Assembly: GCA_043803405.1 (NCBI GenBank)
Contig: JAZDKB010000001.1
Location: 1-58,824 of the forward strand
Direction of reading: 5' to 3'
Source: Spirochaetota bacterium
Lineage (GTDB): Bacteria > Spirochaetota > UBA4802 > JAFGDQ01
Length of the DNA: 58,824 nucleotides
Below the pieces are notes generated by a model. That model saw only the letters and a list, made by a program, of their open reading frames with translations, did not search any database and was not told where the DNA came from. Shown here in pieces: positions 3,956-39,398 of the stretch (position 1 is its first letter; the number at the start of each line of letters is the position of its first letter). A program made the position numbers and the translations under genes.

Positions 3956-6541
3956 ATGAATTTCTTAAAACGTACATCATTGTTGTTGGGTTTTGTTCTG
4001 CTTACTGCAGTGCAAGTATACGCCAGCGAAGCCGATCTTGCTATTCCGGATCTTCACGCAGGCAGTTACAATTTATTCGGCGGAACAATATCCGCATGGC
4101 AGCTGCTGTTCTACGGAGCATTAGTTATTGCCGGAACACTGGGAATAAGCTTGTTCCAGTTCTTTATGATTAAAAAAATCAAAGCGCACGAATCAATGCT
4201 GAAAGTTGCGCAGATTATCTACAAAACATGCAGCACTTATCTTATTCAGCAAGGCAAGTTCCTTCTAATGCTGTTCTGCTTTATAGCAATCGCTATGGCA
4301 TTTTATTTCCTGGTGCTTAAAGGCGAACGCGTCCCGGTTCTTATTCAGGTTCTATTGTTCTCCGTTATAGGTATGGGAGGATCATACTGCGTTGCATGGT
4401 ACGGCATAAGAGTCAATACGTATGCCAACGCACGTACAGCTTTTGCTTCACTTGCAGGCAAACCATGGGACGTTGTTAATATCCCGCTGCGCGCAGGCAT
4501 GAGCGTTGGTCTTTTCCTTATTTCCCTTGAGCTTGTAATGATGGTTATTATTCTGCTTTTTGTTCCGCGTGAAATCGTAGGCTACTGCTTCCTCGGATTT
4601 GCGATCGGTGAATCTCTTGGCGCATCAGCGCTCAGAATTGCAGGTGGTATCTTCACAAAGATAGCGGACATAGGCTCCGACCTTATGAAGATTGTTTTCA
4701 AAGTAAAAGAAGACGATCCGCGTAACCCGGGCGTTATTGCAGACTGTACAGGTGACAATGCCGGTGACAGCGTAGGCCCAACTGCAGACGGTTTCGAAAC
4801 ATACGGAGTAACAGGCGTTGCTCTGATATCTTTCATAACTCTTGCAATCACAGTTCCCGACATAGTCGGCAGAATGGACATTGCCGGAATACTTGCCAAA
4901 GCAGGCTTTGCAGGCGTAGGCAACGAAGTTGTTAACGCGATTGCCACAACTTTCCAGGCAGAACTCCAGTCCAAACTGATAGTCTGGATATTCGCAATGA
5001 GATTCCTGATGGACTTCTTCTCCGGTATCTCGTACTTTGTAAACCAGGCAATTTCAACTGCAAAATATGCAGGCAAAAAAGAGTTCGATTTTGAAGAGCC
5101 TTTAATGAGACTTATCTGGATTGCTGCAATACTTTGCATAAGCACATCGTTCTTTATGAGCAATCTGCTTTTAGGCAACCTTGACCTTACATTGTCTGCC
5201 CAGGCATTACAGGCAGTCGGCGTAAAAGGCGCTGTTAGTGCAATCACATTCATTCAGTATCCGGGTATCTGGTGGAAAATGGCAATGATAATAAGCTGCG
5301 GAACACTGGCAGCGGTTCTCATACCGGAATTCACAAAAATATTCACAAGTGCAAAATCAAAACATGTAGCCGAAATTGTTACAGCCACAAGAGAAGGCGG
5401 AGCATCCCTCACAATCCTTTCAGGTATTGTTGCAGGTAACTTCAGCGCTTTCTGGATTGGTATGCTGATTGCAGGCTTAATGACAGGCGCTTATGTTACA
5501 AGCATGTTTGGACTTGGAGATGTTATGGGCCCGTACGCGTCAATATTTGCATTCGGTCTTGTTGCATTCGGTTTCCTTTGCATGGGACCTGTAAACATCG
5601 CAGTAGACAGTTACGGCCCTGTAACGGACAACGCACAGTCAATATTTGAGCTTTCTCAGATTGAAACAATTCCAAATATTAAACAGCAAATAAAGAAAGA
5701 CTTCGGATTTGAACCGGATTTTGAACTTGGAAAACACTTCCTCGAAACAAACGATGGGGCTGGCAACACCTTTAAGGCAACCGCTAAGCCGGTGCTTATC
5801 GGCACTGCAGTTGTAGGAGCTACCACGATGATTTTCGCGATCATCCTGCTGTTAAAGAAAGTCGGTTTCTTAAAGCTGTCTTTAACTGACGCACCGGTTA
5901 TTCTCGGTTTCATCTGCGGCGGCGCTGTTATATTCTGGTTTGCAGGCGCTTCTATGCAGGCTGTTACAACAGGTGCTTACCGTGCAGTCGAGTTTATAAA
6001 GAAAAATATGGATTTAAGCAAAAAAGAAGCTGATCTGGAAGACTCCAAGACAGTCGTCAGGATATGCACTCAATACGCTCAGAAAGGTATGTGGAATATC
6101 TTTATTGCATTGATGGCTATGACTCTTGCATTTGCATTCGTAGATCCGAATTTCTTCGTAGCATACCTTATTTCCATAGCATGCTTCGGTCTGTTCCAGG
6201 CAATCTACATGGCAAACGCCGGCGGAGCTTGGGACAATGCAAAAAAAGTTGTTGAAGTTGACCTTAAAGAAAAAGGCACAGAACTCCATGCAGCAACAGT
6301 CATTGCTGATACAGTCGGCGACCCGTTCAAGGATACATCATCTGTATCAATGAACCCGATCATCAAGTTCTCCACACTTTTTGGTCTGCTGGCAACTGAA
6401 ATCGCGATTGAGATGAAAATGCACGCGATATCCACAAAATCAGTTGATTATACAATGATTATCGCAGTACCGATTTTCATTATCGGACTCTTCTTTGTAT
6501 ACAGATCTTTCTTTGGAATGAGGATTCCGCCGAAAGATTAA
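3956..6541 (+). CDS. hppA: Membrane-bound ion-translocating pyrophosphatase, K+-independent type
   Basis: Motifs GGIFTKIADIGSDL, EDDPRNPGVIAD.TGDNAGD, DSYGPVTDNA, GNTFKA (Lys at the K+-independence position), GGAWDNAKK and DTVGDPFKD. Many TM helices. Confidence 0.95.
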   Translation: MNFLKRTSLLLGFVLLTAVQVYASEADLAIPDLHAGSYNLFGGTISAWQLLFYGALVIAGTLGISLFQFFMIKKIKAHESMLKVAQIIYKTCSTYLIQQGKFLLMLFCFIAIAMAFYFLVLKGERVPVLIQVLLFSVIGMGGSYCVAWYGIRVNTYANARTAFASLAGKPWDVVNIPLRAGMSVGLFLISLELVMMVIILLFVPREIVGYCFLGFAIGESLGASALRIAGGIFTKIADIGSDLMKIVFKVKEDDPRNPGVIADCTGDNAGDSVGPTADGFETYGVTGVALISFITLAITVPDIVGRMDIAGILAKAGFAGVGNEVVNAIATTFQAELQSKLIVWIFAMRFLMDFFSGISYFVNQAISTAKYAGKKEFDFEEPLMRLIWIAAILCISTSFFMSNLLLGNLDLTLSAQALQAVGVKGAVSAITFIQYPGIWWKMAMIISCGTLAAVLIPEFTKIFTSAKSKHVAEIVTATREGGASLTILSGIVAGNFSAFWIGMLIAGLMTGAYVTSMFGLGDVMGPYASIFAFGLVAFGFLCMGPVNIAVDSYGPVTDNAQSIFELSQIETIPNIKQQIKKDFGFEPDFELGKHFLETNDGAGNTFKATAKPVLIGTAVVGATTMIFAIILLLKKVGFLKLSLTDAPVILGFICGGAVIFWFAGASMQAVTTGAYRAVEFIKKNMDLSKKEADLEDSKTVVRICTQYAQKGMWNIFIALMAMTLAFAFVDPNFFVAYLISIACFGLFQAIYMANAGGAWDNAKKVVEVDLKEKGTELHAATVIADTVGDPFKDTSSVSMNPIIKFSTLFGLLATEIAIEMKMHAISTKSVDYTMIIAVPIFIIGLFFVYRSFFGMRIPPKD

Positions 6542-6723: not shown

Positions 6724-6789
6724 TTGACACATATTCAACCGATAATTTAAAGTACTTATCTTCTATACATATCCATGGAGGGCCGGACT

Positions 6790-7992
6790 TTGAATAAAAA
6801 AATAATATTTAAAATATCAAAAAAAATATTTATTCCCCTCTTGACCGCAGTATTCTTTACAGTAAATTTATTCAACAACCAGATACTAAAAGCCAGCAAC
6901 GAAAAAGACCTTATCCTGATTGTCGACACATCATTAACCATGGCAGGATACGGTACCGGAAGCTCAAATATACTGCCCCAGGTTAAAAAAAGCCTGCCGC
7001 AGTTCATTGAGCAACTGGACAGCGATGACAGCATTACATTAATAACATTCGATACCGATATAAAAATTTATCCAACGATCTATATTGACGACAAAAAAAA
7101 CAAAGATAGCCTTATTGAATATATAAAAAACATAAAAGCTACAGGTGCATGGACATATACAAGCCAGATGATGAAAACAGCTTTTCAGAAAGCGCAGGAA
7201 CTTGAAGCAAAAAATAAAAAAAGACAACAGGTCATTGTTATAATGACAGATGCTATCGACGACCCGCCTCCGGGCAAACGCGCCGACAGGTTAAACATAA
7301 AACAAATAGGAAAAAATTATAAGGACAAAGACTGGTTTATATTTTTTGTAAATTTTGGGGAAGCTCTTAAATCCAATCCCCAGCTTGCCAAAATGCAGAA
7401 AGAACTAACTGCAGATGTTACAAAATACACAAAAGTAATTGAGACTAATGCCGGACAGGCAAAAAAAACCGATAAAATGACAGGAAAAACAACCCTGTAT
7501 ACCGGGGAAAAAGGCATTCAAAAGAGTATTGAGAAAGATTTATCTGAAAATATTAAGAATATGGAAGATAAAAAAGACGGTAAAGGCGGTTTTCCTTATA
7601 AAATACTCATAATTGCATTATTAATTATTGCTATCGTGCTGGCTGTTTTATACTATTTTAAAAATTATTCAAAACTCAGAGTAACAGGTAAATTAGAATA
7701 CTGGGATCATACTATGATAAGCCCGTATTTTGAAAAGTTCGATCTTACAAAACAGGATGCAAAAGAAATACTGGTCGGCACAAAAACTTCATGTAATTTG
7801 ACAATACGCGATATAGAAATAACAGATCCCTTTAAAATTACTGCAATAAAAGTTAATGGTGAAGTAAAAAATGCATTGCAGGCCGGCAAAGGCTACGCAA
7901 TCGAATACGCGAACAGAGATCCCGAAGGTTATTTAAAAAACGGGGATATGTTTAAAATTGCAAACTATACTTTTAAATATTCAGAAACATAG
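6790..7992 (+). CDS. Membrane-anchored vWA (MIDAS) domain protein with C-terminal cytoplasmic beta (FHA-like) domain
   Basis: N-terminal hydrophobic segment. MIDAS-like DTSLT...T...MTD. TM helix ILIIALLIIAIVLAVLYYF. C-terminal LKNGDMFKIANYTFKY. GGAGG RBS favours TTG 6790. Confidence 0.75.
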   Translation: MNKKIIFKISKKIFIPLLTAVFFTVNLFNNQILKASNEKDLILIVDTSLTMAGYGTGSSNILPQVKKSLPQFIEQLDSDDSITLITFDTDIKIYPTIYIDDKKNKDSLIEYIKNIKATGAWTYTSQMMKTAFQKAQELEAKNKKRQQVIVIMTDAIDDPPPGKRADRLNIKQIGKNYKDKDWFIFFVNFGEALKSNPQLAKMQKELTADVTKYTKVIETNAGQAKKTDKMTGKTTLYTGEKGIQKSIEKDLSENIKNMEDKKDGKGGFPYKILIIALLIIAIVLAVLYYFKNYSKLRVTGKLEYWDHTMISPYFEKFDLTKQDAKEILVGTKTSCNLTIRDIEITDPFKITAIKVNGEVKNALQAGKGYAIEYANRDPEGYLKNGDMFKIANYTFKYSET

Positions 7993-8339: not shown

Positions 8340-10298
8340 ATGTCCGTTTTTCAATTTCCCAAAAGTCCAAATAAAGTTCACCCTGAATTGCCAAGTGCCG
8401 TTGGTTCCAGAAACTCAATCGTTCAGGAAGGACGAGATAAAGTTGCCGAATCAAAATTAGTTTTGGATGAGACAACTGACAAAGTTTTAAACCATATTCA
8501 AAGCAAATTGCCTGTAGAAGTACTGGAAAAAATCGACATTATGGGCGGTTTAAAAGAAAAACTGTATGGCTACATCAACCAGACATACGTCAATATGTTT
8601 AACAGATACAATGTAACCATGGAAGATGAAATTATAAAAAAAGTCCGTGATTTCGTCGATAAGGAAGAATCAAAATGTCTGGCAAGATATACACCCAGAG
8701 AAATAACAGAAATGCTGGATAAAATCGGCGGAGCGGAAAAATTCAATACAGGTGAGATTGAAAAATCCATTGTAAATATGTATGGCCACCTTCAGGGCCA
8801 TATTCAGAGAGGATTAAACGACCTCGAGAACGAAACAAACTCCATTTTAAGACAGAAAACAGATGTCGGTGCATTTGTAAGAGGCCAGAACGCATATGCA
8901 ATTCTTAAATGCATCTTTAAAGACAATTTCCTTAAACCGAAATATGTTTATGATGTTAAATTATCAATAAACATTTGCGACAGCGAACTTGTAAGCCCTA
9001 TAAAACATTACCAGGTTACTCTTGAGTCTTTGCTAAAAAAATCAATTCAATCCCATATTCATAACTTGATCGAAAGACAGATTGAAGAGCTTAAAGAAGA
9101 ACTCGTTGATCAGGGCAAACAGGAACTGGAAGCATCTGAAATAATGTTCGAAAAGATTAAAAGAGTGGAAAACTTCACTGACGACAACAAGGAAGACGAG
9201 AAATCAAAGAGGTATACAATCCTTGCAAAAAAATTCCTTGATAAGATAGAAGGCCTTAGAGCTGAAATAGACGAAGGTGAATACGATCCGCTAAATATAA
9301 GAGAAAACATCAAGTTTGTCATAGACGAAGAGAATATAAGAGGCAGAGGTTACAATTCATGTCTTAACTCCTTAACTTCAATTCTCGATACAAGCAAAAT
9401 GGGATATCAGGTTTGCGATAACCTTAAAAATGCCAGAGTTTGCCATATCAGAGAATATGAAGAAATGGATCCGACAGTTCTTCCCGATGAAAGATACGGT
9501 ATTAGAATGGCTTATTATGATCAGGACCAATTAAGGGAAGAGAAAAAAGAATTCGACAAACAGATGGAAGCATTCAGCAGAGAGATCGCTAAGTTATGGG
9601 ATGTAGTCCATGCGCATTATGAATCAAAAAAGAGATTCAGATCGCTCAAAGATTTCGACGATCTTACAAAGAGACTTATGAAGAAGGAATGGAGAGTCAG
9701 CACAAAAGAGGAAGATGATGCAAGCGGCATTCTATGGAATGAACTCGGTGAAATGTATCCTGAAAATACTTTTGTTGAAAAAAACAACAGAACGTACGAA
9801 TTCAGAACACTTCATTTAGTAAGAAAAATGAGATATTTGCGTGAGATGGTTGCCAAAATGCACGGTTATCAGAATCCGATTGAGCGTGTTATTATTGATG
9901 AGAGAATTGACTTTGTTGAAAAGAGATTCCATGAATTTACATATAAAGTCAATCCGCATCATATTCAACCGGGGCTTATCCTTGATATCGATGTAACTAC
10001 TACAAAGAGAAAACAGTATATTCTGAAAGGAATGGCCGGTGTACTGAACGAATTCCTGTTCGATATTTCAAAGGGATTTGCGGATGCAGCATTTGCTTCT
10101 TACACAAGAAGAAGATCAACTGTAAGAGACGACATAGATCAATCGTTCGCAACAGAGGAAGTTCAGGAACATATATTCGAATCAGCATATAAAGCATCTA
10201 ATGAAGCTTCGGAAGTAAAGGGGACTGTTGACTTAACGCCTTCGGCAAAGAAAAAAGCAACATCAAAAGGAAGAACTTCAGGATTAAAAGAACTCTAA
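8340..10298 (+). CDS. cfpA: Cytoplasmic filament protein CfpA
   Basis: Motifs as recalled for Treponema CfpA: PKSPN..HPE.PSAVGSRNS, MGGLKEKLY, KFNTGEIEKS.VNMYGHLQGHIQRG, LRQK.DVGAFVRG, SKGFADAAFAS..RRRSTVR. Confidence 0.92.
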   Translation: MSVFQFPKSPNKVHPELPSAVGSRNSIVQEGRDKVAESKLVLDETTDKVLNHIQSKLPVEVLEKIDIMGGLKEKLYGYINQTYVNMFNRYNVTMEDEIIKKVRDFVDKEESKCLARYTPREITEMLDKIGGAEKFNTGEIEKSIVNMYGHLQGHIQRGLNDLENETNSILRQKTDVGAFVRGQNAYAILKCIFKDNFLKPKYVYDVKLSINICDSELVSPIKHYQVTLESLLKKSIQSHIHNLIERQIEELKEELVDQGKQELEASEIMFEKIKRVENFTDDNKEDEKSKRYTILAKKFLDKIEGLRAEIDEGEYDPLNIRENIKFVIDEENIRGRGYNSCLNSLTSILDTSKMGYQVCDNLKNARVCHIREYEEMDPTVLPDERYGIRMAYYDQDQLREEKKEFDKQMEAFSREIAKLWDVVHAHYESKKRFRSLKDFDDLTKRLMKKEWRVSTKEEDDASGILWNELGEMYPENTFVEKNNRTYEFRTLHLVRKMRYLREMVAKMHGYQNPIERVIIDERIDFVEKRFHEFTYKVNPHHIQPGLILDIDVTTTKRKQYILKGMAGVLNEFLFDISKGFADAAFASYTRRRSTVRDDIDQSFATEEVQEHIFESAYKASNEASEVKGTVDLTPSAKKKATSKGRTSGLKEL

Positions 10299-10335
10299 AA
10301 AGGAGTTAGTATAAAATTGTATAACAAGTAAGTAT

Positions 10336-10369
10336 AAAAAAGGATGCTATTAAAATAGCATCCTTTTTT
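10336..10369 (+). terminator. Rho-independent terminator after cfpA
   Basis: AAAAAAGGATGCTATT-AA-AATAGCATCCTTTTTT. Confidence 0.8.
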
Positions 10370-10465
10370 CTTTGCTGCTTTTCTATGCCGCTTTCTTTAT
10401 TCTTAATACTGCTTATCTAATTTGCATTTTACAATATTTTTGAAAAATAAAGGAGAAATTAACTA

Positions 10466-11374
10466 ATGGAAACGACCTTTTTTTCGCTGGCTACTAAAAG
10501 CAAGTTTAATAAAGGACTTAATCATTTCTTTGCTGTTAATGAAGTTGTTGAAGAAGTCGGTTCAGGTTATAATATTGCCGATTTAATCGGGAAAAAACTT
10601 GATGAAGATGAACTAATGCGGGACCAGATTCTGCCGATAGTCGGATCTGTTATAAAAGAAAAATTTAATTACTCATATGATTCGTTTAACATACCAAGTA
10701 CAATTACCGACTTTAATAAAATTATTGAAGAAACTTCGAAATGGACAGCCGTTGATATTTTGATCGTCTACTATAATCCGAATGGCGAAATATTTTTAAT
10801 CAATCCTAAAAATCCTGCGCACTGGGAAAAAGCAGGCGATCTTTCAGCCGATCATCTTGCTGTTATATATGCAAAGTACTTAAAATCGGAAAATAAAACA
10901 ATTTCAGATGAAGCCATTAAGGCTATTGAAGAAATGATAGCAGGCAAAGATGTATTTATAAATCAGGAATTTATTGACCATACCGTAAGCCCTAAAAGAG
11001 TAGCAAGAAAGGAATCAGCAACCGGGAAAGAGCAGCCCGGCAAAAAAACGCTTACTCCTAAATACTCTGTTCTTGTTACTAATGAACTCTTTCATAACGG
11101 CAATGTCGAAGCATGGAAAAAAATAATTGAAAGTTTTAAGGCTTCTCATCCGGACCTGGAGGTGGCAATTTTTTATGACAACGAATTGATTAATGACATC
11201 AATTCGCTGTTTAAATGGGGCAAGGTTAAAAGTAAATCCTATATTTATTTTCAGGTTAGCGGTGAAAACATAAGAGATGTTTCGAAGTTGCAAAAATACT
11301 TATTTGAAGGCGCCAGCGTCAGATTTGAACAATTTCTAAAACTGGGCGTAGGGAAAGTTTTAAAATTATTTTAA
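10466..11374 (+). CDS. Conserved spirochaetal hypothetical protein with putative C-terminal HPr-like domain
   Basis: AAGGAG RBS. Residues ~198-280 (KYSVLVTNELFH...F...V.I...SLFKWG...I.F.VSGE...V..L) follow the HPr pattern, with His210 at the His15-equivalent position. Confidence 0.6.
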   Translation: METTFFSLATKSKFNKGLNHFFAVNEVVEEVGSGYNIADLIGKKLDEDELMRDQILPIVGSVIKEKFNYSYDSFNIPSTITDFNKIIEETSKWTAVDILIVYYNPNGEIFLINPKNPAHWEKAGDLSADHLAVIYAKYLKSENKTISDEAIKAIEEMIAGKDVFINQEFIDHTVSPKRVARKESATGKEQPGKKTLTPKYSVLVTNELFHNGNVEAWKKIIESFKASHPDLEVAIFYDNELINDINSLFKWGKVKSKSYIYFQVSGENIRDVSKLQKYLFEGASVRFEQFLKLGVGKVLKLF

Positions 11375-11519
11375 AATAAATAAATTTTATTATTCTTGTT
11401 TCTTCTATATTTTAATAAAGGCTGCTGTTTATTTTATTATTGTTTCAGATGAAATGATATTTAAAATCAATTTTTAATATATTACTTACATTTTATTTCT
11501 TCCGGAGGTTAAAAATCTT

Positions 11520-14117
11520 ATGGACAATATAATAAATTTTAATAAAGAATTAAAAGATTTTGACGACAAATTATTTAAAAGATCCGGCATAAGAGGCCGC
11601 AGAGCTCTTGAGCTTGCCAAAATCGGGCTCCCTATTGCACCCGGATTCATTATCGATTCTGATTTAACCAAAAAGCTGCCACGGGTTAACATTAAACAGC
11701 TCATTAAAACCGCTATTACTCAACTTGAAAAAGATATTGATAAAGGTTTTGGAAATCAGAAAAAACCGCTGCTACTAAAAGTAGTATTAAGCTCTGATTT
11801 AAATGTTCCTTTCTTCCCTTCCATCCACCATGTCGGATTAAATGAAAAAACTGTTGATGGTTTTGCAGAATTTACCGGTGAGGATTTTGCCTACGGTGAA
11901 CAAATTTATCTTCTGCACAGCATAGCTACAAAAATATATAAACTTGATGAAGGGGATATTAAAAAACTGGAAGAAAAATCTTCTAAACAGATGAATCTTG
12001 AAAGCGCAAAAAAAACTATTGAAAATTACAAGAAATATCTGGGAGACAGATACAGCGACGATGTATATGATCAGCTTGGGCTTATTTTAAAAGGCGCTGC
12101 GGATGCTTACTGTGATTCTGAACTCGATGTTGATAACTCTTTAGCCATTATGGTTCAGGCTATGGTCTACGGCAATTACGGGCAGAATTCATTTTCCGGC
12201 AACTATTATACAAGGGATATTGTAACCGGAGAACCTAAAATAAAAGGACAATACTTACAAAATGCGTTTGATATCGACAAGGTCAAACCAAAAGATATTT
12301 CTACAATTGAAAAAAAATATTTTACCCACTTTGCCGATATTGCAAAAAAAATTGAAGATAACTTTAAGGAAATCCGCGAAATAAAATTTACAATTGAAGA
12401 AGGAAAATTCTGGATTGTTGAACAGTTCGAGGTTGATGAAAAGTCAACACAGGCACACATTAAAACAATGCTGGACCTTTCTAAAAGAAAAAAAATCACT
12501 GAAGAATATCTGGTTGAACATATTCAGCCTAATCAGCTCAACGAATTGCTGCATCCGGTAATTGATCCCAGAACAACTAAAGGAGTAAAAACGATCCAGG
12601 GCGGGGTATCAGGTTCAACCGGCGCAGCCATTGGAAGGGTTTTCTTTTCTACACCAAGCCTGCTAGAAGCTCATAAAAGAGCGATAATGAGAGGAGATGA
12701 TACGAACTTAATTCTCGTTATGCCTGCAACTTATGCTGAAGATGTTAAAGCGATTGAAGTCGCAAAAGGCGTAATTTCGACAGAAGGCGGATTCTCTTCA
12801 CATGCGCCTGTTGTCGCACGCAGCCTGGGCAAAGTCGCGATGGTTCAGCCAGATATGAAAATAAGGGGGACCAGTTTTACTCTGGGCGGAAAAACAGTAA
12901 GTGAAGGCGATTTTATTTCAATAAATGTGCCCTACTATGAAGCACCAACAATTTACCTGGATAAAGTAGGCCTCATTGAACCTAATTTCAAGGAAAACGG
13001 CCTTCTAGATTTTCTCGATATTGTAAATAAATTCATCGATTCATTTGACGTAAGGGCGAACGCCGACCAGCCGAAGGACGCTGTTATCGCAAAACAATTC
13101 CATGCAAGGGGGATCGGCCTTTGCAGGACAGAGCACATGTTCTTTAACGAGAAAAGAATTATGACATTCAGACAGATGATCCTTGCAGAAGATGAATCGG
13201 AAAGAAGAAAAGCGCTTTCTGCTTTAAAACCCATGCAGAGAACCGACTTTTACGAATTATTCAAAATTATGCAGGGACTTCCTGTGACTATCAGGCTTCT
13301 GGATGCTCCGCTGCATGAATTTCTTCCGAGAACGTCCGGCAGCATGGATGAGCTGGTTGCGTTTCTTAAATCAAAAAAAGACCGGGCCAGCGCTTCAGAA
13401 GTTAAAGCAAGATGCGACGAGCTTGCGGAGATGAACCCCATGCTTGGCCACAGAGGTTGCAGGGTTGCAGTCACGCATCCGGAAATTTACGAAATGCAGT
13501 GCAGAGCAATCTTTGAAGCAGCCTGCATGTTAAAAAAAGAAGGTATAGAGGTTAAACCCGAAATAATGATTCCTATCGTAATGAGCGAGCATGAACTTAA
13601 ATTTATAAAAACAGGCAAAAAAATTGAAGGGAAAACGGTTAAAGGAATCCGCGATATAAAAGACGAAGTAATAAAAGAATACGGTGTAGATCATCTTGAT
13701 TACAGCATAGGCTCAATGATTGAGCTTCCGGCTGCCGCTTTGAGAGCAGGCTCTATTGCCCAGCATGCGGAATTCTTCAGCTTCGGCACGAATGACCTTA
13801 CACAGACATCCTACGGTCTTTCCAGGGACGACAGCAACTCGTTCTTCCCGAGCTATTCTCTTTACGATCTTATGAAAGACAATCCCTTTAAAGTGCTGGG
13901 CGAAGAAGTAAAAGAATTAATCGAGCTCGCTCAACTGAGAGGAAAACTCACCAGGCCGAATATTAAATGCGGCTTGTGCGGCGAGCACGGGGCAGATCCT
14001 GAAAATATTGCGTTCTGCATAAATGTCGGATTAAATTATGTTTCATGTTCTCCATATTCAATTCCTCTCGCAAAACTGGCGATCGCAAAATATAATTTAG
14101 CAAACAAGGAAGAGTAA
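11520..14117 (+). CDS. ppdK: PPDK-derived PEP-utilising protein with degenerate nucleotide-binding domain
   Basis: Full PPDK architecture. Intact GGFSSHA (His428), GLCRTEHMFF, TIRLLD, MIELP, FGTNDLTQ and GLCGEHG (Cys820). ATP-grasp motifs are altered (see findings). Confidence 0.85.
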   Translation: MDNIINFNKELKDFDDKLFKRSGIRGRRALELAKIGLPIAPGFIIDSDLTKKLPRVNIKQLIKTAITQLEKDIDKGFGNQKKPLLLKVVLSSDLNVPFFPSIHHVGLNEKTVDGFAEFTGEDFAYGEQIYLLHSIATKIYKLDEGDIKKLEEKSSKQMNLESAKKTIENYKKYLGDRYSDDVYDQLGLILKGAADAYCDSELDVDNSLAIMVQAMVYGNYGQNSFSGNYYTRDIVTGEPKIKGQYLQNAFDIDKVKPKDISTIEKKYFTHFADIAKKIEDNFKEIREIKFTIEEGKFWIVEQFEVDEKSTQAHIKTMLDLSKRKKITEEYLVEHIQPNQLNELLHPVIDPRTTKGVKTIQGGVSGSTGAAIGRVFFSTPSLLEAHKRAIMRGDDTNLILVMPATYAEDVKAIEVAKGVISTEGGFSSHAPVVARSLGKVAMVQPDMKIRGTSFTLGGKTVSEGDFISINVPYYEAPTIYLDKVGLIEPNFKENGLLDFLDIVNKFIDSFDVRANADQPKDAVIAKQFHARGIGLCRTEHMFFNEKRIMTFRQMILAEDESERRKALSALKPMQRTDFYELFKIMQGLPVTIRLLDAPLHEFLPRTSGSMDELVAFLKSKKDRASASEVKARCDELAEMNPMLGHRGCRVAVTHPEIYEMQCRAIFEAACMLKKEGIEVKPEIMIPIVMSEHELKFIKTGKKIEGKTVKGIRDIKDEVIKEYGVDHLDYSIGSMIELPAAALRAGSIAQHAEFFSFGTNDLTQTSYGLSRDDSNSFFPSYSLYDLMKDNPFKVLGEEVKELIELAQLRGKLTRPNIKCGLCGEHGADPENIAFCINVGLNYVSCSPYSIPLAKLAIAKYNLANKEE

Positions 14118-14138
14118 GCAGCTCGGGATAAGTATATA

Positions 14139-15407
14139 ATGAATGCAACAGTAGAAACATATACAGAGGAAACCGGAAAACAAGTGGATAATCTCAATAA
14201 ACTTCTTGAAATTAACGCCATTATCAATTCAACGCTTGATATAGGAAAATTGCTGAATATAATAATGGAAATTATCAAGGATATAATGAATGCAGAAGCC
14301 AGCACTCTTTTTTTATACGAAGAAAAAACAAAGGACCTTGTATTTAAGGTTGCATTGGGTGAAGCTGGGAAAGAACTGGCTGAAAAACACAGAGTTAAAA
14401 TCGGCAGGGGTGTAGCAGGCTGGGTTGCGGAAAAAAGAACGCCCATTTACATTAATGATGTTTACGCTGATAAGAGATTCGATCCTAATTACGATAAAAT
14501 TACGGGATTCAGCACAAAAGCAATATTATGCGTTCCGCTTTTATTCAAGGGAAAGCTTATCGGGGTAATCCAGGCAATTAATCCAAAAGGCAGGCAGGGA
14601 TTTGATGATAATGACATGATACTTTTCTCCGCCTTTTCCGAACAGGCTGTTCTTGCTGTTCAAAACGCAATCTTCTTTCAGCAGGCGGTTGAAGAGCAAA
14701 GGATAAAAGCCGAGATAAACTCCGCCAGATCGTTTCACAATTCCCTGCTCCCTCCTGTTGATAAAAAATACAAGAATATTGAAATTGCCGCCCGGTCGAT
14801 CCCGGCCAGAGAATTAGGGGGCGAATTTTACGATATTTCTTTCTTCAATGATTCGGTGGGCATTACGCTTGGAGACACTCAGACAAAAGGGATTCCCGGA
14901 GCGCTGAACGCTTCCATTCTGTTGGGCGCCATTAAAGGCGTAACATCGATTGTCCACGGCAACCCGGCTAAATTGCTGTATAATCTCAATAATACTATTG
15001 GTAAAAATATTGAGATCATGTCCATTTTTAACGGATTAATATCTTGCGAAAAGAAATTGATCCAGTTCATTAATGTAGGCTTTGCTTACCCTATAATAAT
15101 ACGAAAAAATGTCGCCCGATATTTAAAATTTACCTCTCCTTCCGGAATGGCGATTCTGCATCCGAAGCTAATAAATGTAAAGCTGGAGCCGAATGACTTT
15201 TTTGTAATCATCACTGACGGGATCGTAAATCTTAAAAACAAAGGAGCGCAGAACCTGGGACTAAAAAGAATTATGGATCATCTTTGCAGGAATTATAAGA
15301 GTCCAAAAGAGATTGTAGAATCCCTTAATAATCTTGCGGATGAATTTTTGGAAGGCCTTGAAAAGATGGAAGATATTTCAATAATTGTTTTTAAATTAGA
15401 AAACTAA
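14139..15407 (+). CDS. GAF + SpoIIE/RsbU-type PP2C phosphatase domain protein
   Basis: GAF motifs IGRGVAGWVAE, DVYADKRF and ILCVPL...LIGVIQAIN. PP2C-like GGEFYD, LGDT, ITDGI and EDISII. Confidence 0.85.
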   Translation: MNATVETYTEETGKQVDNLNKLLEINAIINSTLDIGKLLNIIMEIIKDIMNAEASTLFLYEEKTKDLVFKVALGEAGKELAEKHRVKIGRGVAGWVAEKRTPIYINDVYADKRFDPNYDKITGFSTKAILCVPLLFKGKLIGVIQAINPKGRQGFDDNDMILFSAFSEQAVLAVQNAIFFQQAVEEQRIKAEINSARSFHNSLLPPVDKKYKNIEIAARSIPARELGGEFYDISFFNDSVGITLGDTQTKGIPGALNASILLGAIKGVTSIVHGNPAKLLYNLNNTIGKNIEIMSIFNGLISCEKKLIQFINVGFAYPIIIRKNVARYLKFTSPSGMAILHPKLINVKLEPNDFFVIITDGIVNLKNKGAQNLGLKRIMDHLCRNYKSPKEIVESLNNLADEFLEGLEKMEDISIIVFKLEN

Positions 15408-15419
15408 GGGAATAATAAT

Positions 15420-15641
15420 ATGAGCAATTATGTTTCCGTAATTTTTTGCAGAAACTGCAGTTCCAGATATGTTGAAATTGAGGAATGGGATACAAACGAA
15501 AAAAAAGTGGTAATTCACTGCAGGACGTGCGACATAAGGGAACCTCTCACTAATTTCACCTTAGGGAGATGTAAAATCCCGGATAAAGATCTTCAGGAAG
15601 CAAGGGATACAAAAGCTGTTCCCTTTAAACCTGAAAGGTAG
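15420..15641 (+). CDS. Small zinc-ribbon protein
   Basis: CRNC...CRTC pair, 73 aa, 12 bp after the phosphatase gene. Confidence 0.65.
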   Translation: MSNYVSVIFCRNCSSRYVEIEEWDTNEKKVVIHCRTCDIREPLTNFTLGRCKIPDKDLQEARDTKAVPFKPER

Positions 15642-19386: not shown

Positions 19387-20004
19387 TTAAAACACCACAG
19401 TCTGATCCGGTTCAACAGTGAAGCCTGTTTTGCAGTCCGGGCAAATGTATTCGCCGCTTTTCTTTACTCTTATCATGCCTTTGCATTCTGCGCATTCAAG
19501 TATAATGGGATGATCGAATGTCTTTTCTCCGGATGACTCTTCCTCCGAATTGCTGTTGGAAAGTTCCTTTACTACTTCGGGTTGCGCTCTAAAGGAATCC
19601 AGCGCTTCTTTTTTAATAACAGCCTTTCCCCGCATTTCGCTTTCAATGAGCGTTATCTGTTTCTGCATTATGCTTAAAGCTTCTTCTTTGCTGTTTGCAA
19701 GCTTAATGATTTTATCGAATCCCAGCATTTTATAGATTGTGGCAATTTCTTCGGAAATATTGCATACGATAAAGAATCCCTTGGAAGACAATATTTTCTT
19801 CTGCGTGTAAAGAAAAACCCCGAATCCCGCGGAACTAATGTATGTTAAATTTTTTGCATTTATAATAACGAAAAATTTCTTCTTCAGCAACAGCTGATTT
19901 ATATAATCTTCAAAATCAGGGCTTGTCTCTGAATCCAGGGCGCCTTTTAGTTCAATAAGTACTACTTTTCCTTCCAGGTCTTCTGTATGATTAATAAAAA
20001 TCAT
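19387..20004 (-). CDS. STAS anti-sigma-factor antagonist with C-terminal zinc ribbon
   Basis: L.GALD, LTYISSAG STAS motif, C-terminal CAEC...CPDC. Confidence 0.8.
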   Translation of the reverse strand: MIFINHTEDLEGKVVLIELKGALDSETSPDFEDYINQLLLKKKFFVIINAKNLTYISSAGFGVFLYTQKKILSSKGFFIVCNISEEIATIYKMLGFDKIIKLANSKEEALSIMQKQITLIESEMRGKAVIKKEALDSFRAQPEVVKELSNSNSEEESSGEKTFDHPIILECAECKGMIRVKKSGEYICPDCKTGFTVEPDQTVVF

Positions 20005-36228: not shown

Positions 36229-36564
36229 TTAAAAAGCTCTGATCGCTTCATCTTCCGTATTATATACTTCAAACATATCCAGCAATTCAACAATTTCAAA
36301 AATTTTTTTAACCGGTTCGCTTAAGCTGCACAACTTAAGCTTTCTGCCGGTCTCTTTTAAAATTCTCATTGTAGAAACGAAAATCCTGATGCCGGAACTG
36401 CTCATATACTTAACATCAGCCAGATTTAAAAGCAAATGAAAATCTTTTTCCGTTTGAATTAGCTGGTATATTTCCTTCTCAATTTGTATTGAATACTGAA
36501 CATCCAATCTGCCGGTGAGCGGCAATATTATTATATTGTTTATTTTTTTTATTTGCAGCTGCAT
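36229..36564 (-). CDS. STAS anti-sigma-factor antagonist
   Basis: L.GRLD, LNL.DV.YMSSSG, VKKIFEIV.L. Confidence 0.9.
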   Translation of the reverse strand: MQLQIKKINNIIILPLTGRLDVQYSIQIEKEIYQLIQTEKDFHLLLNLADVKYMSSSGIRIFVSTMRILKETGRKLKLCSLSEPVKKIFEIVELLDMFEVYNTEDEAIRAF

Positions 36565-39059: not shown

Positions 39060-39398
39060 CTATCTGTTAAAAGCCGCTATAGCAGCATCTTCTGAATCAT
39101 ATATCTCGAAAAATGATGTCAGTTTAGTAAGTTCAAAGACTTTCTTGACTGATGCGTAGACGTTAATTATTTTAAGGCCGCCCTGATATTTCTTTAAATT
39201 AGAAAGGCTGGAAATCAAAGCGCCAATACCGGATGAATCAATATATGATACTTTTTCAAGATCAATGATTACATTATAATTCCGTCCCTCAATTATTTTA
39301 TGAATAATGTCTTTTATCTCAGGCGCATTATATAAGTCAATTTCCCCGACAATTACTAAAATAACTATGTCGCCTCTTTTTCTCTGGGTAATATCCAT
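39060..39398 (-). CDS. STAS anti-sigma-factor antagonist
   Basis: GEIDLYNAP, IDLEKVSYIDSSGIGALI, VFELTKL. Confidence 0.92.
   Translation of the reverse strand: MDITQRKRGDIVILVIVGEIDLYNAPEIKDIIHKIIEGRNYNVIIDLEKVSYIDSSGIGALISSLSNLKKYQGGLKIINVYASVKKVFELTKLTSFFEIYDSEDAAIAAFNR

What the first reader, a model, noticed from the sequence alone, without database searches (positions are those of the whole stretch)
8340..15641. Candidate PEP-driven phosphorelay next to the spirochaete cytoskeleton gene: cfpA - HPr-like protein - ATP-site-dead PPDK - GAF/PP2C - Zn ribbon
Seen in sequence: five co-oriented genes, of which the 'PPDK' keeps only its PEP-to-His half and the preceding hypothetical ends in a domain with an HPr-like pattern and His. 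Established: PTS Enzyme I shares the His and PEP-binding domains with PPDK and passes phosphate to HPr His15. From recall, to be verified: Treponema pallidum has the same order cfpA (TP0748), hypothetical (TP0747), 'ppdK' (TP0746), so the triad may be conserved across spirochaetes and mis-annotated as metabolic. Inference: an independently evolved Enzyme I/HPr-like pair that reports the PEP:pyruvate ratio to CfpA filaments, or to the downstream phosphatase and STAS partner-switching network. I know of no description of such a system. Caveat: a terminator separates cfpA from the next gene.
Basis: partly seen in the sequence, partly recalled or inferred. Interest (0 to 1): 0.9.

Follow-up and report, generated by a model that had tools for sequence, protein, structure and literature searches.

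The report
Filament-linked PPDK look-alike gene trio
Spirochaetes that have the cytoplasmic-filament gene cfpA almost always keep beside it a protein built from two HPr-like folds and a copy of the enzyme PPDK that has lost its ATP-handling residues, which suggests an undescribed PEP-driven phosphate relay tied to the cell skeleton and means the "PPDK" of the syphilis bacterium is probably not a normal PPDK.

Summary
Five co-oriented genes lie at 8340-15641: cfpA, a 302-aa protein, a PPDK-like gene, a GAF-SpoIIE phosphatase and a small CxxC protein.

- **PPDK-like protein.** It scores below NCBI's PPDK cut-off. It keeps the phospho-His and PEP/pyruvate motifs, but its ATP-grasp residues are replaced by a different, conserved signature. 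The genome also holds a canonical PPDK, two Enzyme I-like genes and a true HPr.
- **302-aa protein (Pfam TP_0747_N family).** It models as a helical head plus two HPr-fold domains. The second carries a near-invariant His just before helix 1. It has no sequence similarity to HPr.
- **Linkage.** In 100 loci the PPDK look-alike follows this gene in 98, and cfpA precedes it in 89 of 95 testable loci. Among 401 Spirochaetota genomes, 140 hold all three genes and 252 hold none.
- **Treponema.** T. pallidum TP0748-TP0747-TP0746 is the same trio, and TP0746 is its only PPDK-like gene.
- **Not core.** The phosphatase and the Zn-ribbon gene follow in only 3 of 80 loci.

Phosphotransfer itself is untested, and a complex prediction gave no verdict. 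The scan has noted this module before on other DNA. I found no description in print.

The parts
6775..7992 (+). VWA-domain protein, the usual upstream neighbour of cfpA in this order of spirochaetes
   Evidence: Pfam VWA_2 at 46.4 bits. A homologue lies just upstream of cfpA in most of loci L009-L082. None was seen in the 19 more distant loci; L097 is the exception.
8340..10298 (+). cfpA, cytoplasmic filament protein
   Evidence: NF040882 equivalog at 894.7 bits, cut-off 500.
10337..10369 (+). Intrinsic-terminator-like hairpin plus T-run between cfpA and the next gene
   Evidence: Read. Fold dG -20.5 kcal/mol, z -6.1.
10466..11374 (+). 302-aa TP_0747-family protein: helical head (residues 11-66), HPr-fold domain 1 (69-161), disordered linker (about 165-195), HPr-fold domain 2 (195-290)
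   Evidence: AlphaFold model with pLDDT 92.6. Precomputed PF27497 on all 120 listed homologues. Named TP_0747_N by the Atlas.
10670..10948 (+). HPr-fold domain 1 (residues 69-161), with no His at the phosphorylation position
   Evidence: VIA-align against E. coli HPr 9s8b_C: Z 9.1, rmsd 1.8 A, 80 of 85 residues aligned. The loop before helix 84-90 holds the near-invariant N75 and no His.
11048..11335 (+). HPr-fold domain 2 (residues 195-290), carrying the motif TNELFHNGNVEAW with His210 (codon 11093-11095)
   Evidence: The domain modelled alone has pLDDT 89, with His at model residue 19 and helix 1 at 20-36. The top 4 VIA matches are all HPr (Z 7.2, 7.2, 6.7, 6.7). The top Foldseek rows are almost all HPr (best E 6.8e-3, probability 0.99). 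His is invariant in 31 of 31 sequences.
11520..14117 (+). PPDK paralogue (RefSeq name of the orthologues: 'putative PEP-binding protein')
   Evidence: TIGR01828 at 697.9 bits, below the cut-off of 843.45. Forms a separate clade from canonical PPDKs.
11520..12554 (+). Remodelled ATP-grasp-derived N-domain (residues 1-345)
   Evidence: Mapped to 1dik numbering: K22 to R25, R92 to V89, G101 deleted, M103 to F99, E323 to K289, R337 to E304, and the AQGEDVVAG loop deleted. The same signature is present in 72 of 72 and 18 of 18 full-length neighbours. Identity is 37-90% across the phylum.
12582..12929 (+). Swivelling phospho-His domain with His428 (codon 12801-12803)
   Evidence: Pfam PEP-utilizers at 39.9 bits. 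Motif EGGFSSHAPVVARSLG read. His is invariant in 43 of 43 sequences.
13038..14093 (+). PEP/pyruvate-binding TIM-barrel domain
   Evidence: Pfam PEP-utilizers_C at 234.9 bits. Motifs GLCRTEHMF, TIRLLD, NPMLGHRG, MIELP, FSFGTNDLTQ and CGEHG are kept in nearly all neighbours.
14139..15407 (+). GAF + SpoIIE/PP2C phosphatase; a lineage-specific neighbour, not part of the core
   Evidence: Pfam GAF_2 at 67.3 bits and SpoIIE at 55.7 bits. Follows the trio only in L008-L010.
15420..15641 (+). 73-aa protein with two CxxC pairs; lineage-specific
   Evidence: Sequence. No significant family match. Homologues found only in L008-L010.

Best explanation
cfpA, the TP_0747-family gene and the PPDK paralogue form one conserved functional module of cfpA-bearing spirochaetes.

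The proposed mechanism is as follows:
1. The paralogue binds PEP in its intact C-terminal domain and phosphorylates its own swivelling His428. The residues for this step are shown to be conserved; the activity is inferred.
2. Its former ATP-grasp domain can no longer carry out the AMP/PPi half-reaction. It has been remodelled into a conserved docking surface.
3. The phosphoryl group is instead passed to His210 of the second HPr-fold domain of the 302-aa protein. This step is inferred.
4. The helical head and first HPr-fold domain of that protein tie the pair to the CfpA filament. This step is inferred.

The module would then couple the PEP/pyruvate state of the cell to the cytoskeleton. It would work like Enzyme I/HPr without being a member of either family. 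The GAF-PP2C and Zn-ribbon genes are local additions, not part of it.
For: **PEP-to-His half kept, ATP half lost**
- The His motif and all six PEP-domain motifs are conserved in 72 of 72 neighbours and 19 of 19 neighbours.
- K22, R92, the G101 loop, E323 and R337 are replaced or deleted in all full-length members.
- K22 is needed for catalysis in this enzyme class (passages of PMC4844700 citing Ye 2001).

**The N-domain is not decaying**
- It is 37-90% identical across the phylum.
- It has its own invariant residues.

**A distinct function is implied**
- G000 and most of the genomes I looked at that carry the paralogue also keep a canonical PPDK; I did not count them.
- The two forms separate into clades with SH-aLRT 96 and 98, across a branch of about 1.6 changes per site. 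Seven genomes contribute to both sides.

**The 302-aa protein**
- It has two HPr-fold domains.
- The motif NELFHNGNVEAW is invariant around a His that sits directly before helix 1.

**Linkage**
- The paralogue lies directly downstream in 98 of 100 loci, with a median gap of 30 bp.
- cfpA lies directly upstream in 89 of 95 testable loci.

**Phyletic pattern**
- Of 401 genomes, 140 have all three genes, 9 have one or two, and 252 have none.

**Expression**
- T. denticola TDE0842-0844 are repressed together in co-culture (Table 5 of PMC3914990).
Against: - No phosphotransfer has been shown.
- The HPr likeness is fold-only. hhalign against this genome's own HPr gives probability 0.3%, and 0 of 31 members match PF00381.
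- The structural scores are moderate: Z 7.2, below the tool's caution line of 8, and Foldseek E above 0.001. This fold type is a common arrangement.
- The better HPr-fold match is domain 1, which has no His.
- A strong terminator-like hairpin separates cfpA from the pair.
- A strongly conserved N-domain fits a retained small-molecule site as well as it fits a docking surface. K22 to R is conservative, and Q335 may be kept as Q302.
- T. pallidum has neither pyruvate kinase nor a canonical PPDK, which would favour a metabolic role for TP0746.
- In family f41 all three genes are present, yet the one f41 locus I fetched (L100) has neither neighbour beside the 302-aa gene, and the f41 matches lie on different contigs. 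In genus g4, cfpA lies on a different contig from the pair.
Confidence: 0.4

Rival explanations
1. The paralogue is still a metabolic PEP/pyruvate enzyme whose N-domain has changed co-substrate. It would take a phosphoryl acceptor other than AMP + PPi. The 302-aa protein would be its accessory or regulatory subunit. The link to cfpA would reflect shared expression rather than a signal to the filament.
For: - T. pallidum (G102) has no pyruvate kinase (0 matches; the control rings in 14 of 14 genomes).
- It has only this one PPDK-like gene.
- The field treats TP0746 as the glycolytic end enzyme (passage of PMC10013896).
- The N-domain is under strong constraint, with invariant polar residues R25, K87, S91, H103, E127, Q213, N219, R286, E293 and Q302.
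- A membrane H+-pyrophosphatase lies two genes upstream here and in L009.
Against: - G102 has a GTP-type PEP carboxykinase (544 bits) and a Na+-pump decarboxylase beta subunit (602 bits). A PEP to oxaloacetate to pyruvate route therefore exists without it.
- Presence and absence follow cfpA, not glycolysis: 141 of 142 paralogue-bearing genomes also have cfpA.
- G000 and most paralogue-bearing genomes I looked at also keep a canonical PPDK (not counted).
- Charge reversals at E323 and R337, and loss of two loops, remove the known metal and phosphate ligands.
Confidence: 0.3
2. The two proteins are structural or sensing accessories of the CfpA ribbon. The paralogue would bind PEP or pyruvate, or be phosphorylated on His428, as a conformational switch. 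No phosphate would pass to the 302-aa protein, whose conserved His motif would be a binding surface.
For: - The co-occurrence and adjacency with cfpA are very tight.
- One database protein (P0361, 841 aa) reads CfpA in frame with the N-half of the 302-aa family.
- The 13-residue invariant motif is longer than a phospho-acceptor site needs.
- Domain 1 has the HPr fold without a His.
Against: - Every catalytic motif of the His and PEP domains is kept over a deep divergence. That is not expected of a pure scaffold.
- P0361 is a single record. It may be a read-through or an assembly artefact, and no further long fused forms were found.
Confidence: 0.15
3. It is an ordinary, merely divergent PPDK that still uses ATP/AMP, and its position beside cfpA is a historical accident.
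For: - Full-length homology to solved PPDKs (E 6e-161).
- Many sources name it PPDK.
Against: - It scores below NCBI's curated cut-off, and RefSeq already names the orthologues only 'putative PEP-binding protein'.
- The essential ATP-grasp residues are replaced in every full-length member examined.
- Linkage and co-occurrence with cfpA hold across many families.
Confidence: 0.1

Closest known systems
PTS Enzyme I / HPr (PtsI/PtsH), and the regulatory pair EI-Ntr/NPr
   Same: - A PEP-binding domain and a swivelling phospho-His domain homologous to those of Enzyme I.
- A small partner of beta-alpha-beta-beta-alpha-beta-alpha fold, with a His directly before helix 1.
- The genes are adjacent.
- The proposed logic is PEP to His to His to a regulatory output.
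   Different: - The enzyme descends from PPDK, not from Enzyme I: TIGR01417 scores 118 bits against a cut-off of 341.7, and there is no PEP-utilisers_N match.
- The partner has no sequence kinship to HPr.
- The partner is a 300-aa protein with two such folds and a helical head.
- The genome has its own true Enzyme I-like genes and HPr elsewhere.
- The module travels with a cytoskeleton gene.
Pyruvate, phosphate dikinase (EC 2.7.9.1; TIGR01828; 1DIK/1KBL)
   Same: The same three-domain layout over the whole length. The catalytic His and the PEP/pyruvate site are conserved.
   Different: - It scores below the family cut-off.
- K22, R92, the G101 loop, E323 and R337 are changed, and the AQGEDVVAG loop is deleted.
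- It forms a separate clade.
- It co-exists with a canonical PPDK in G000 and most genomes I looked at (not counted).
Rifampin phosphotransferase (RPH)
   Same: A member of the same enzyme class in which one substrate domain was exchanged while the swivelling His domain was kept. Part of its new domain resembles HPr (passages of PMC4844700).
   Different: RPH keeps the ATP-grasp domain and replaces the PEP domain. Here the PEP domain is kept and the ATP-grasp site is remodelled.
Treponemal cfpA locus (T. pallidum TP0748-TP0747-TP0746; T. denticola TDE0842-0844)
   Same: The same three genes in the same order.
   Different: In print these are treated as a filament gene, a hypothetical protein and a glycolytic PPDK, not as one module. 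This window comes from an uncultured lineage that adds a VWA gene upstream and GAF-PP2C and Zn-ribbon genes downstream.

Membership tests
Pyruvate, phosphate dikinase (TIGR01828, EC 2.7.9.1) | Score at or above the curated equivalog cut-off (843.45 bits) | tested here: not met
   697.9 bits. The genome's other copy scores 1374.7 bits.
Pyruvate, phosphate dikinase (TIGR01828, EC 2.7.9.1) | ATP-grasp catalytic residues. These are K22, R92, the G101 loop, D321, E323, Q335 and R337 in 1dik numbering. The list of essential residues is recalled from Ye et al. 2001; only K22 was seen in a paper here. | tested here: not met
   K22 to R, R92 to V, G101 deleted, E323 to K, R337 to E, and Q335 to E or shifted. 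The same holds in 72 of 72 and 18 of 18 full-length neighbours.
Pyruvate, phosphate dikinase (TIGR01828, EC 2.7.9.1) | Catalytic His on the swivelling domain, and an intact PEP/pyruvate site | tested here: met
   His428 sits in GGFSSH. The motifs RTEH, RLLD, MIELP, GTNDL and CGEHG are kept.
PTS Enzyme I (TIGR01417) | Family score, and an N-terminal HPr-binding helical subdomain (PF05524) | tested here: not met
   118.3 bits against a cut-off of 341.7, matching the C-terminal part only. No PF05524 match.
HPr (PF00381) | Sequence-family membership | tested here: not met
   The genome-wide PF00381 search finds only the true HPr on contig C18. hhalign probability is 0.3%. 0 of 31 members match.
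HPr (PF00381) | Open-faced beta-alpha-beta-beta-alpha-beta-alpha fold | tested here: met
   Domain 1: Z 9.1, rmsd 1.8 A, 80 of 85 residues aligned. Domain 2: Z 7.2, 78-80 residues aligned, with HPr as the top four matches. Foldseek probability up to 0.99. All of this rests on predicted models.
HPr (PF00381) | Phosphorylatable His at the N-cap of helix 1 (His15) | tested here: inconclusive
   In domain 2 the invariant His is model residue 19 and helix 1 starts at residue 20. No residue-level superposition is printed, and no phosphorylation was tested. Domain 1 has no His there.
CfpA (NF040882) | Equivalog score | tested here: met
   894.7 bits, cut-off 500.
TP_0747 family (PF27497 TP_0747_N) | Carries the family's domain | tested here: met
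   The precomputed PF27497 label is on the window's own protein and on all 120 listed homologues. The Atlas names it. The T. pallidum orthologue is Y747_TREPA. The local Pfam copy lacks this model.
PPDK regulatory protein (PDRP, DUF299) | Family match for the 302-aa protein | tested here: not met
   0 Pfam and 0 NCBIfam families for the 302-aa protein.
SpoIIE/PP2C partner-switching phosphatase | SpoIIE domain, with a sensory GAF domain | tested here: met
   SpoIIE at 55.7 bits and GAF_2 at 67.3 bits. Catalytic residues and the target were not examined.

The most novel reading that the evidence does not exclude
Spirochaetes evolved a second PEP:protein phosphotransferase pair independently of the PTS. 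It consists of a PPDK whose ATP site was turned into a docking site, and a tandem HPr-fold acceptor. This pair reports the PEP/pyruvate state to the CfpA cytoskeleton. As a corollary, Treponema pallidum has no true PPDK at all, and the textbook last step of its glycolysis must run another way, for instance through PEP carboxykinase and the Na+-pumping oxaloacetate decarboxylase.
Probability: 0.3. Interest if true: 0.85.

Novelty: new variant of a known kind. Interest (0 to 1): 0.7.

Why it matters
CfpA filaments are a long-known but poorly understood cytoskeleton of treponemes, and no partners or regulators have been established. A conserved two-gene companion with the chemistry of a PEP-driven His relay gives a concrete, testable link between central metabolism and that cytoskeleton.

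It also bears on the metabolic map of the syphilis spirochaete. TP0746 is treated as the ATP-yielding PPDK that replaces the missing pyruvate kinase. Yet it belongs to a branch that lacks the residues for the nucleotide half-reaction. Energy budgets and annotation transfers (Swiss-Prot PPDK_TREPA and many MAG records) may therefore need correction.

Tried and rejected
- **Complex prediction.** I ran the paralogue (residues 1-500) with the whole 302-aa protein, both as alignments. The result was ipSAE 0.00 in two runs, verdict 'no answer', and no controls were run. This is neither for nor against binding.
- **Sequence kinship to HPr.** hhalign against the genome's own HPr, Pfam at E up to 10 on 31 members and the genome-wide PF00381 search all found nothing.
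- **Internal duplication.** Domain 1 against the domain-2 profile gave probability 0.3%.
- **Fused forms.** The 'longer' search found none at E <= 0.001. This is weak evidence. The single CfpA-fusion record P0361 stays unexplained.
- **Foldseek on the whole model.** No match at E <= 0.001.
- **Is the GAF-PP2C/Zn-ribbon pair part of the system?** Rejected: it follows the trio in only 3 of 80 loci.
- **Are the two PPDK-like genes of family f19 the same paralogue?** Rejected: their N-domains score like canonical PPDK, 45-52 bits against 220 bits for T. pallidum.
- **Tree.** One row (C_L114) was a wrong-frame ORF picked by my script and sits on a branch of length 10. It should be ignored. The careful search did not finish, so the tree is the quick one.
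- **Threshold.** At E <= 1e-30 the N-domain query also caught canonical PPDKs. I dropped six genomes whose only hit was under 125 bits (G029, G034, G047, G094, G353, G389) before the overlap count.
- **Papers.** Searches for TP0746, TP0747, TP0748, TDE0843/0844 and for cfpA with PPDK or operon found no functional study of the two partner genes.
- **Not seen.** Supplementary tables, such as interactome or proteome lists, were not opened and could hold relevant interactions.

Full report
**What is there.** The window carries five co-oriented ORFs at exactly the stated coordinates.
- The first is CfpA (NF040882, 894.7 bits, cut-off 500).
- The second (302 aa) matches nothing in the local Pfam or NCBIfam. 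It has 3202 homologues. All 120 listed carry the newer Pfam label PF27497, which the Atlas names TP_0747_N.
- The third (865 aa) aligns over its whole length with solved PPDKs (E 6e-161). It reaches only 697.9 bits on TIGR01828, whose cut-off is 843.45.
- The fourth is a GAF + SpoIIE phosphatase. The fifth is a 73-aa protein with two CxxC pairs.

**The PPDK-like protein.** The same genome has a canonical PPDK (1374.7 bits), two Enzyme I-like genes and one true HPr. So the window's gene is an extra paralogue.

I mapped it to 1dik numbering from the printed alignment. The numbering places R92, G101, M103, D321, E323, Q335 and R337 where I recalled them. The substitutions are:
- K22 to R25
- R92 to V89
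- G101 deleted
- M103 to F99
- D321 to E287
- E323 to K289
- Q335 to E301 (or kept as Q302 with a one-residue shift)
- R337 to E304

The AQGEDVVAG loop is also missing. His428 and the PEP-domain motifs are intact. That K22 matters for catalysis in this enzyme class I saw in passages of PMC4844700, which cites Ye et al. 2001. The wider list of essential residues is recalled, not read.

The replaced positions form a conserved signature of their own: G[ISV]RG, KVVLSSDLNVPxFPS, EIRxIKFTIE and WLVEQxxxxKS. It is found in 72 of 72 long neighbours from related loci and in 18 of 18 full-length neighbours from more distant genomes. One further neighbour, L094, is truncated and lacks the N-part. The N-domain is 37-90% identical across the phylum. 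It has been remodelled, not left to decay.

A quick maximum-likelihood tree puts 28 paralogues and 20 canonical PPDKs on either side of a branch of about 1.6 changes per site (SH-aLRT 96 and 98). Seven genomes contribute to both sides. One further row was a script artefact.

**The 302-aa protein.** An AlphaFold model built on 73 sequences (pLDDT 92.6) shows four parts:
- a helical head (residues 11-66);
- a beta-alpha-beta-beta-alpha-beta-alpha domain (69-161);
- a disordered linker;
- a second domain of the same topology (195-290).

A full scan of 48,161 chains puts HPr first for domain 1 (Z 9.1, rmsd 1.8 A, 80 of 85 residues). Modelled alone (pLDDT 89), domain 2 also has HPr as its four best matches (Z 7.2, 7.2, 6.7, 6.7). 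Foldseek's top rows are almost all HPr (best E 6.8e-3, probability 0.99). The Atlas structure search also lists an HPr cluster for residues 190-288.

These scores are moderate and rest on predicted models. At the sequence level there is nothing. The two domains are not detectably similar to each other.

Domain 2 carries the motif TNELFHNGNVEAW. Its His is invariant in 31 of 31 diverse members and sits one residue before helix 1. HPr's His15 occupies that position; this is established knowledge, and no superposition was printed here. Domain 1 has a conserved Asn region there and no His.

**Linkage.** I examined 100 loci: the best 80 of 563 found in GTDB species genomes, plus 20 that I picked from other families.
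- The paralogue lies directly downstream on the same strand in 98. One locus is too short to tell, and L100 is a real exception.
- cfpA lies directly upstream in 89 of 95 loci with enough flank. The exceptions are L015, L036, L058, L081, L094 and L100.
- The median gaps are 30 bp (partner to paralogue) and 167 bp (cfpA to partner).
- The GAF-PP2C and Zn-ribbon genes follow only in the three closest relatives.

**Phyletic pattern.** I searched an even sample of 401 Spirochaetota genomes.
- The 302-aa family occurs in 145.
- cfpA occurs in 148.
- The paralogue's N-domain occurs in 142, after dropping six genomes whose only hit was a canonical PPDK.
- 140 genomes have all three genes, 9 have one or two, and 252 have none.
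- Six of the nine partial cases (G078, G105, G261, G273, G382, G397) are genomes of 80-93% completeness. The other three (G048, G338, G347) are 97-100% complete.
- Two large families have none of the three: f15 (0 of 75) and f19 (0 of 38). The PPDK-like genes of f19 have canonical-type N-domains.

**Treponemes.** Exact look-up shows that the L088 proteins are PPDK_TREPA (AAC65714.1, TP0746) and Y747_TREPA, and that L089 is T. denticola. The recalled order TP0748-TP0747-TP0746 is therefore correct.

RefSeq already calls the orthologues 'putative PEP-binding protein'. UniProt and many submitters call them PPDK.

That T. pallidum genome (G102) has only this one PPDK-like gene, at E 2.4e-183 and below the cut-off. 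It has no pyruvate kinase. It does have a GTP-type PEP carboxykinase and a Na+-pump decarboxylase beta subunit.

A 2023 paper states that TP0746 'most likely' converts PEP, AMP and PPi to pyruvate and ATP (passage of PMC10013896). In T. denticola, TDE0842, TDE0843 and TDE0844 fall together in co-culture arrays (Table 5 of PMC3914990).

**Reading.** The trio is a conserved module.

My best mechanism, at 0.4, is a PEP-driven relay. The intact C-terminal half loads His428. The remodelled N-domain no longer serves AMP/PPi but docks the partner. His210 of the second HPr-fold domain takes the phosphate. The rest of the partner ties the pair to the filament.
- Shown: the architecture, the residue pattern, the linkage and the co-occurrence.
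- Inferred: every chemical step, and any contact with CfpA.

The main rival, at 0.3, keeps a metabolic PEP/pyruvate role with a changed co-substrate. The T. pallidum gene content favours it, and the strict coupling to cfpA argues against it. A non-transfer scaffold or sensor role (0.15) and plain PPDK activity (0.1) remain possible.

**Novelty.** It works like Enzyme I/HPr but fails the membership tests of Enzyme I, of HPr and of PPDK. My searches found no functional description in print. I did not open supplementary tables.

Earlier AI notes of this scan describe the same module on other DNA. They agree with this report but are not independent evidence. One note claims the cassette also occurs outside spirochaetes, which I did not test.

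Noticed in passing
window 3956-6541 (+): A membrane H+-translocating pyrophosphatase (Pfam H_PPase, 573.5 bits) lies two genes upstream of cfpA. The closest relative, L009, has the same order PPase-VWA-cfpA. Any link to the altered PPDK is unexamined.
   Followed up: partly
window 19390-20004, 36232-36564, 39063-39398 (all -): Three STAS-domain proteins lie in the window. Together with the GAF-SpoIIE phosphatase at 14139-15407, they fit a partner-switching network that is separate from the conserved trio.
   Followed up: no
protein P0361 (841 aa): One database protein reads CfpA (residues 8-594, 626.8 bits) in frame with the N-half of the 302-aa family (residues 619-791). It may be a true fusion, a read-through or an assembly artefact. 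No other long fused form was found.
   Followed up: partly
G347 (L094 6594-8354; G347:C1:2249885-2251645): A 100%-complete genome has the 302-aa gene followed by a paralogue that lacks the whole N-domain. Its cfpA lies elsewhere, inside a 2159-aa frame with an internal TAA. The module may be breaking down or rearranged there.
   Followed up: no
L100 (G076) and other f41 genomes of 1.3-1.9 Mb: All three genes are present in f41. In the one f41 locus I fetched (L100) neither neighbour lies beside the 302-aa gene, and across f41 genomes the matches sit on different contigs. In genus g4 (L015, L058), the partner-paralogue pair is kept together but cfpA is on another contig.
   Followed up: partly
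L099 8032-8960 (G332); also G341 and G385: The 302-aa gene appears split into separate N-half and C-half reading frames in a few genomes.
   Followed up: no
family f19, genus g50 (e.g. G028:C2:508840-509994): Genomes of this family lack cfpA and its partners. Each has two PPDK-like matches near E 1e-262, close to the TIGR01828 cut-off, in frames of about 1000 aa. Their N-domains look canonical.
   Followed up: partly
L007 551-1767: The genome's true HPr (90 aa, with a GVHARPA motif) is directly preceded by a 313-aa gene. By eye this looks like HPr kinase/phosphorylase; it was not tested against a family library.
   Followed up: no
G338 (family f21, genus g99, 2.0 Mb, 100% complete): A congener of the T. 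pallidum genome has only a weak cfpA match (E 4.6e-112), no 302-aa gene and no paralogue, but it does have a canonical PPDK. This is the reverse of T. pallidum.
   Followed up: no
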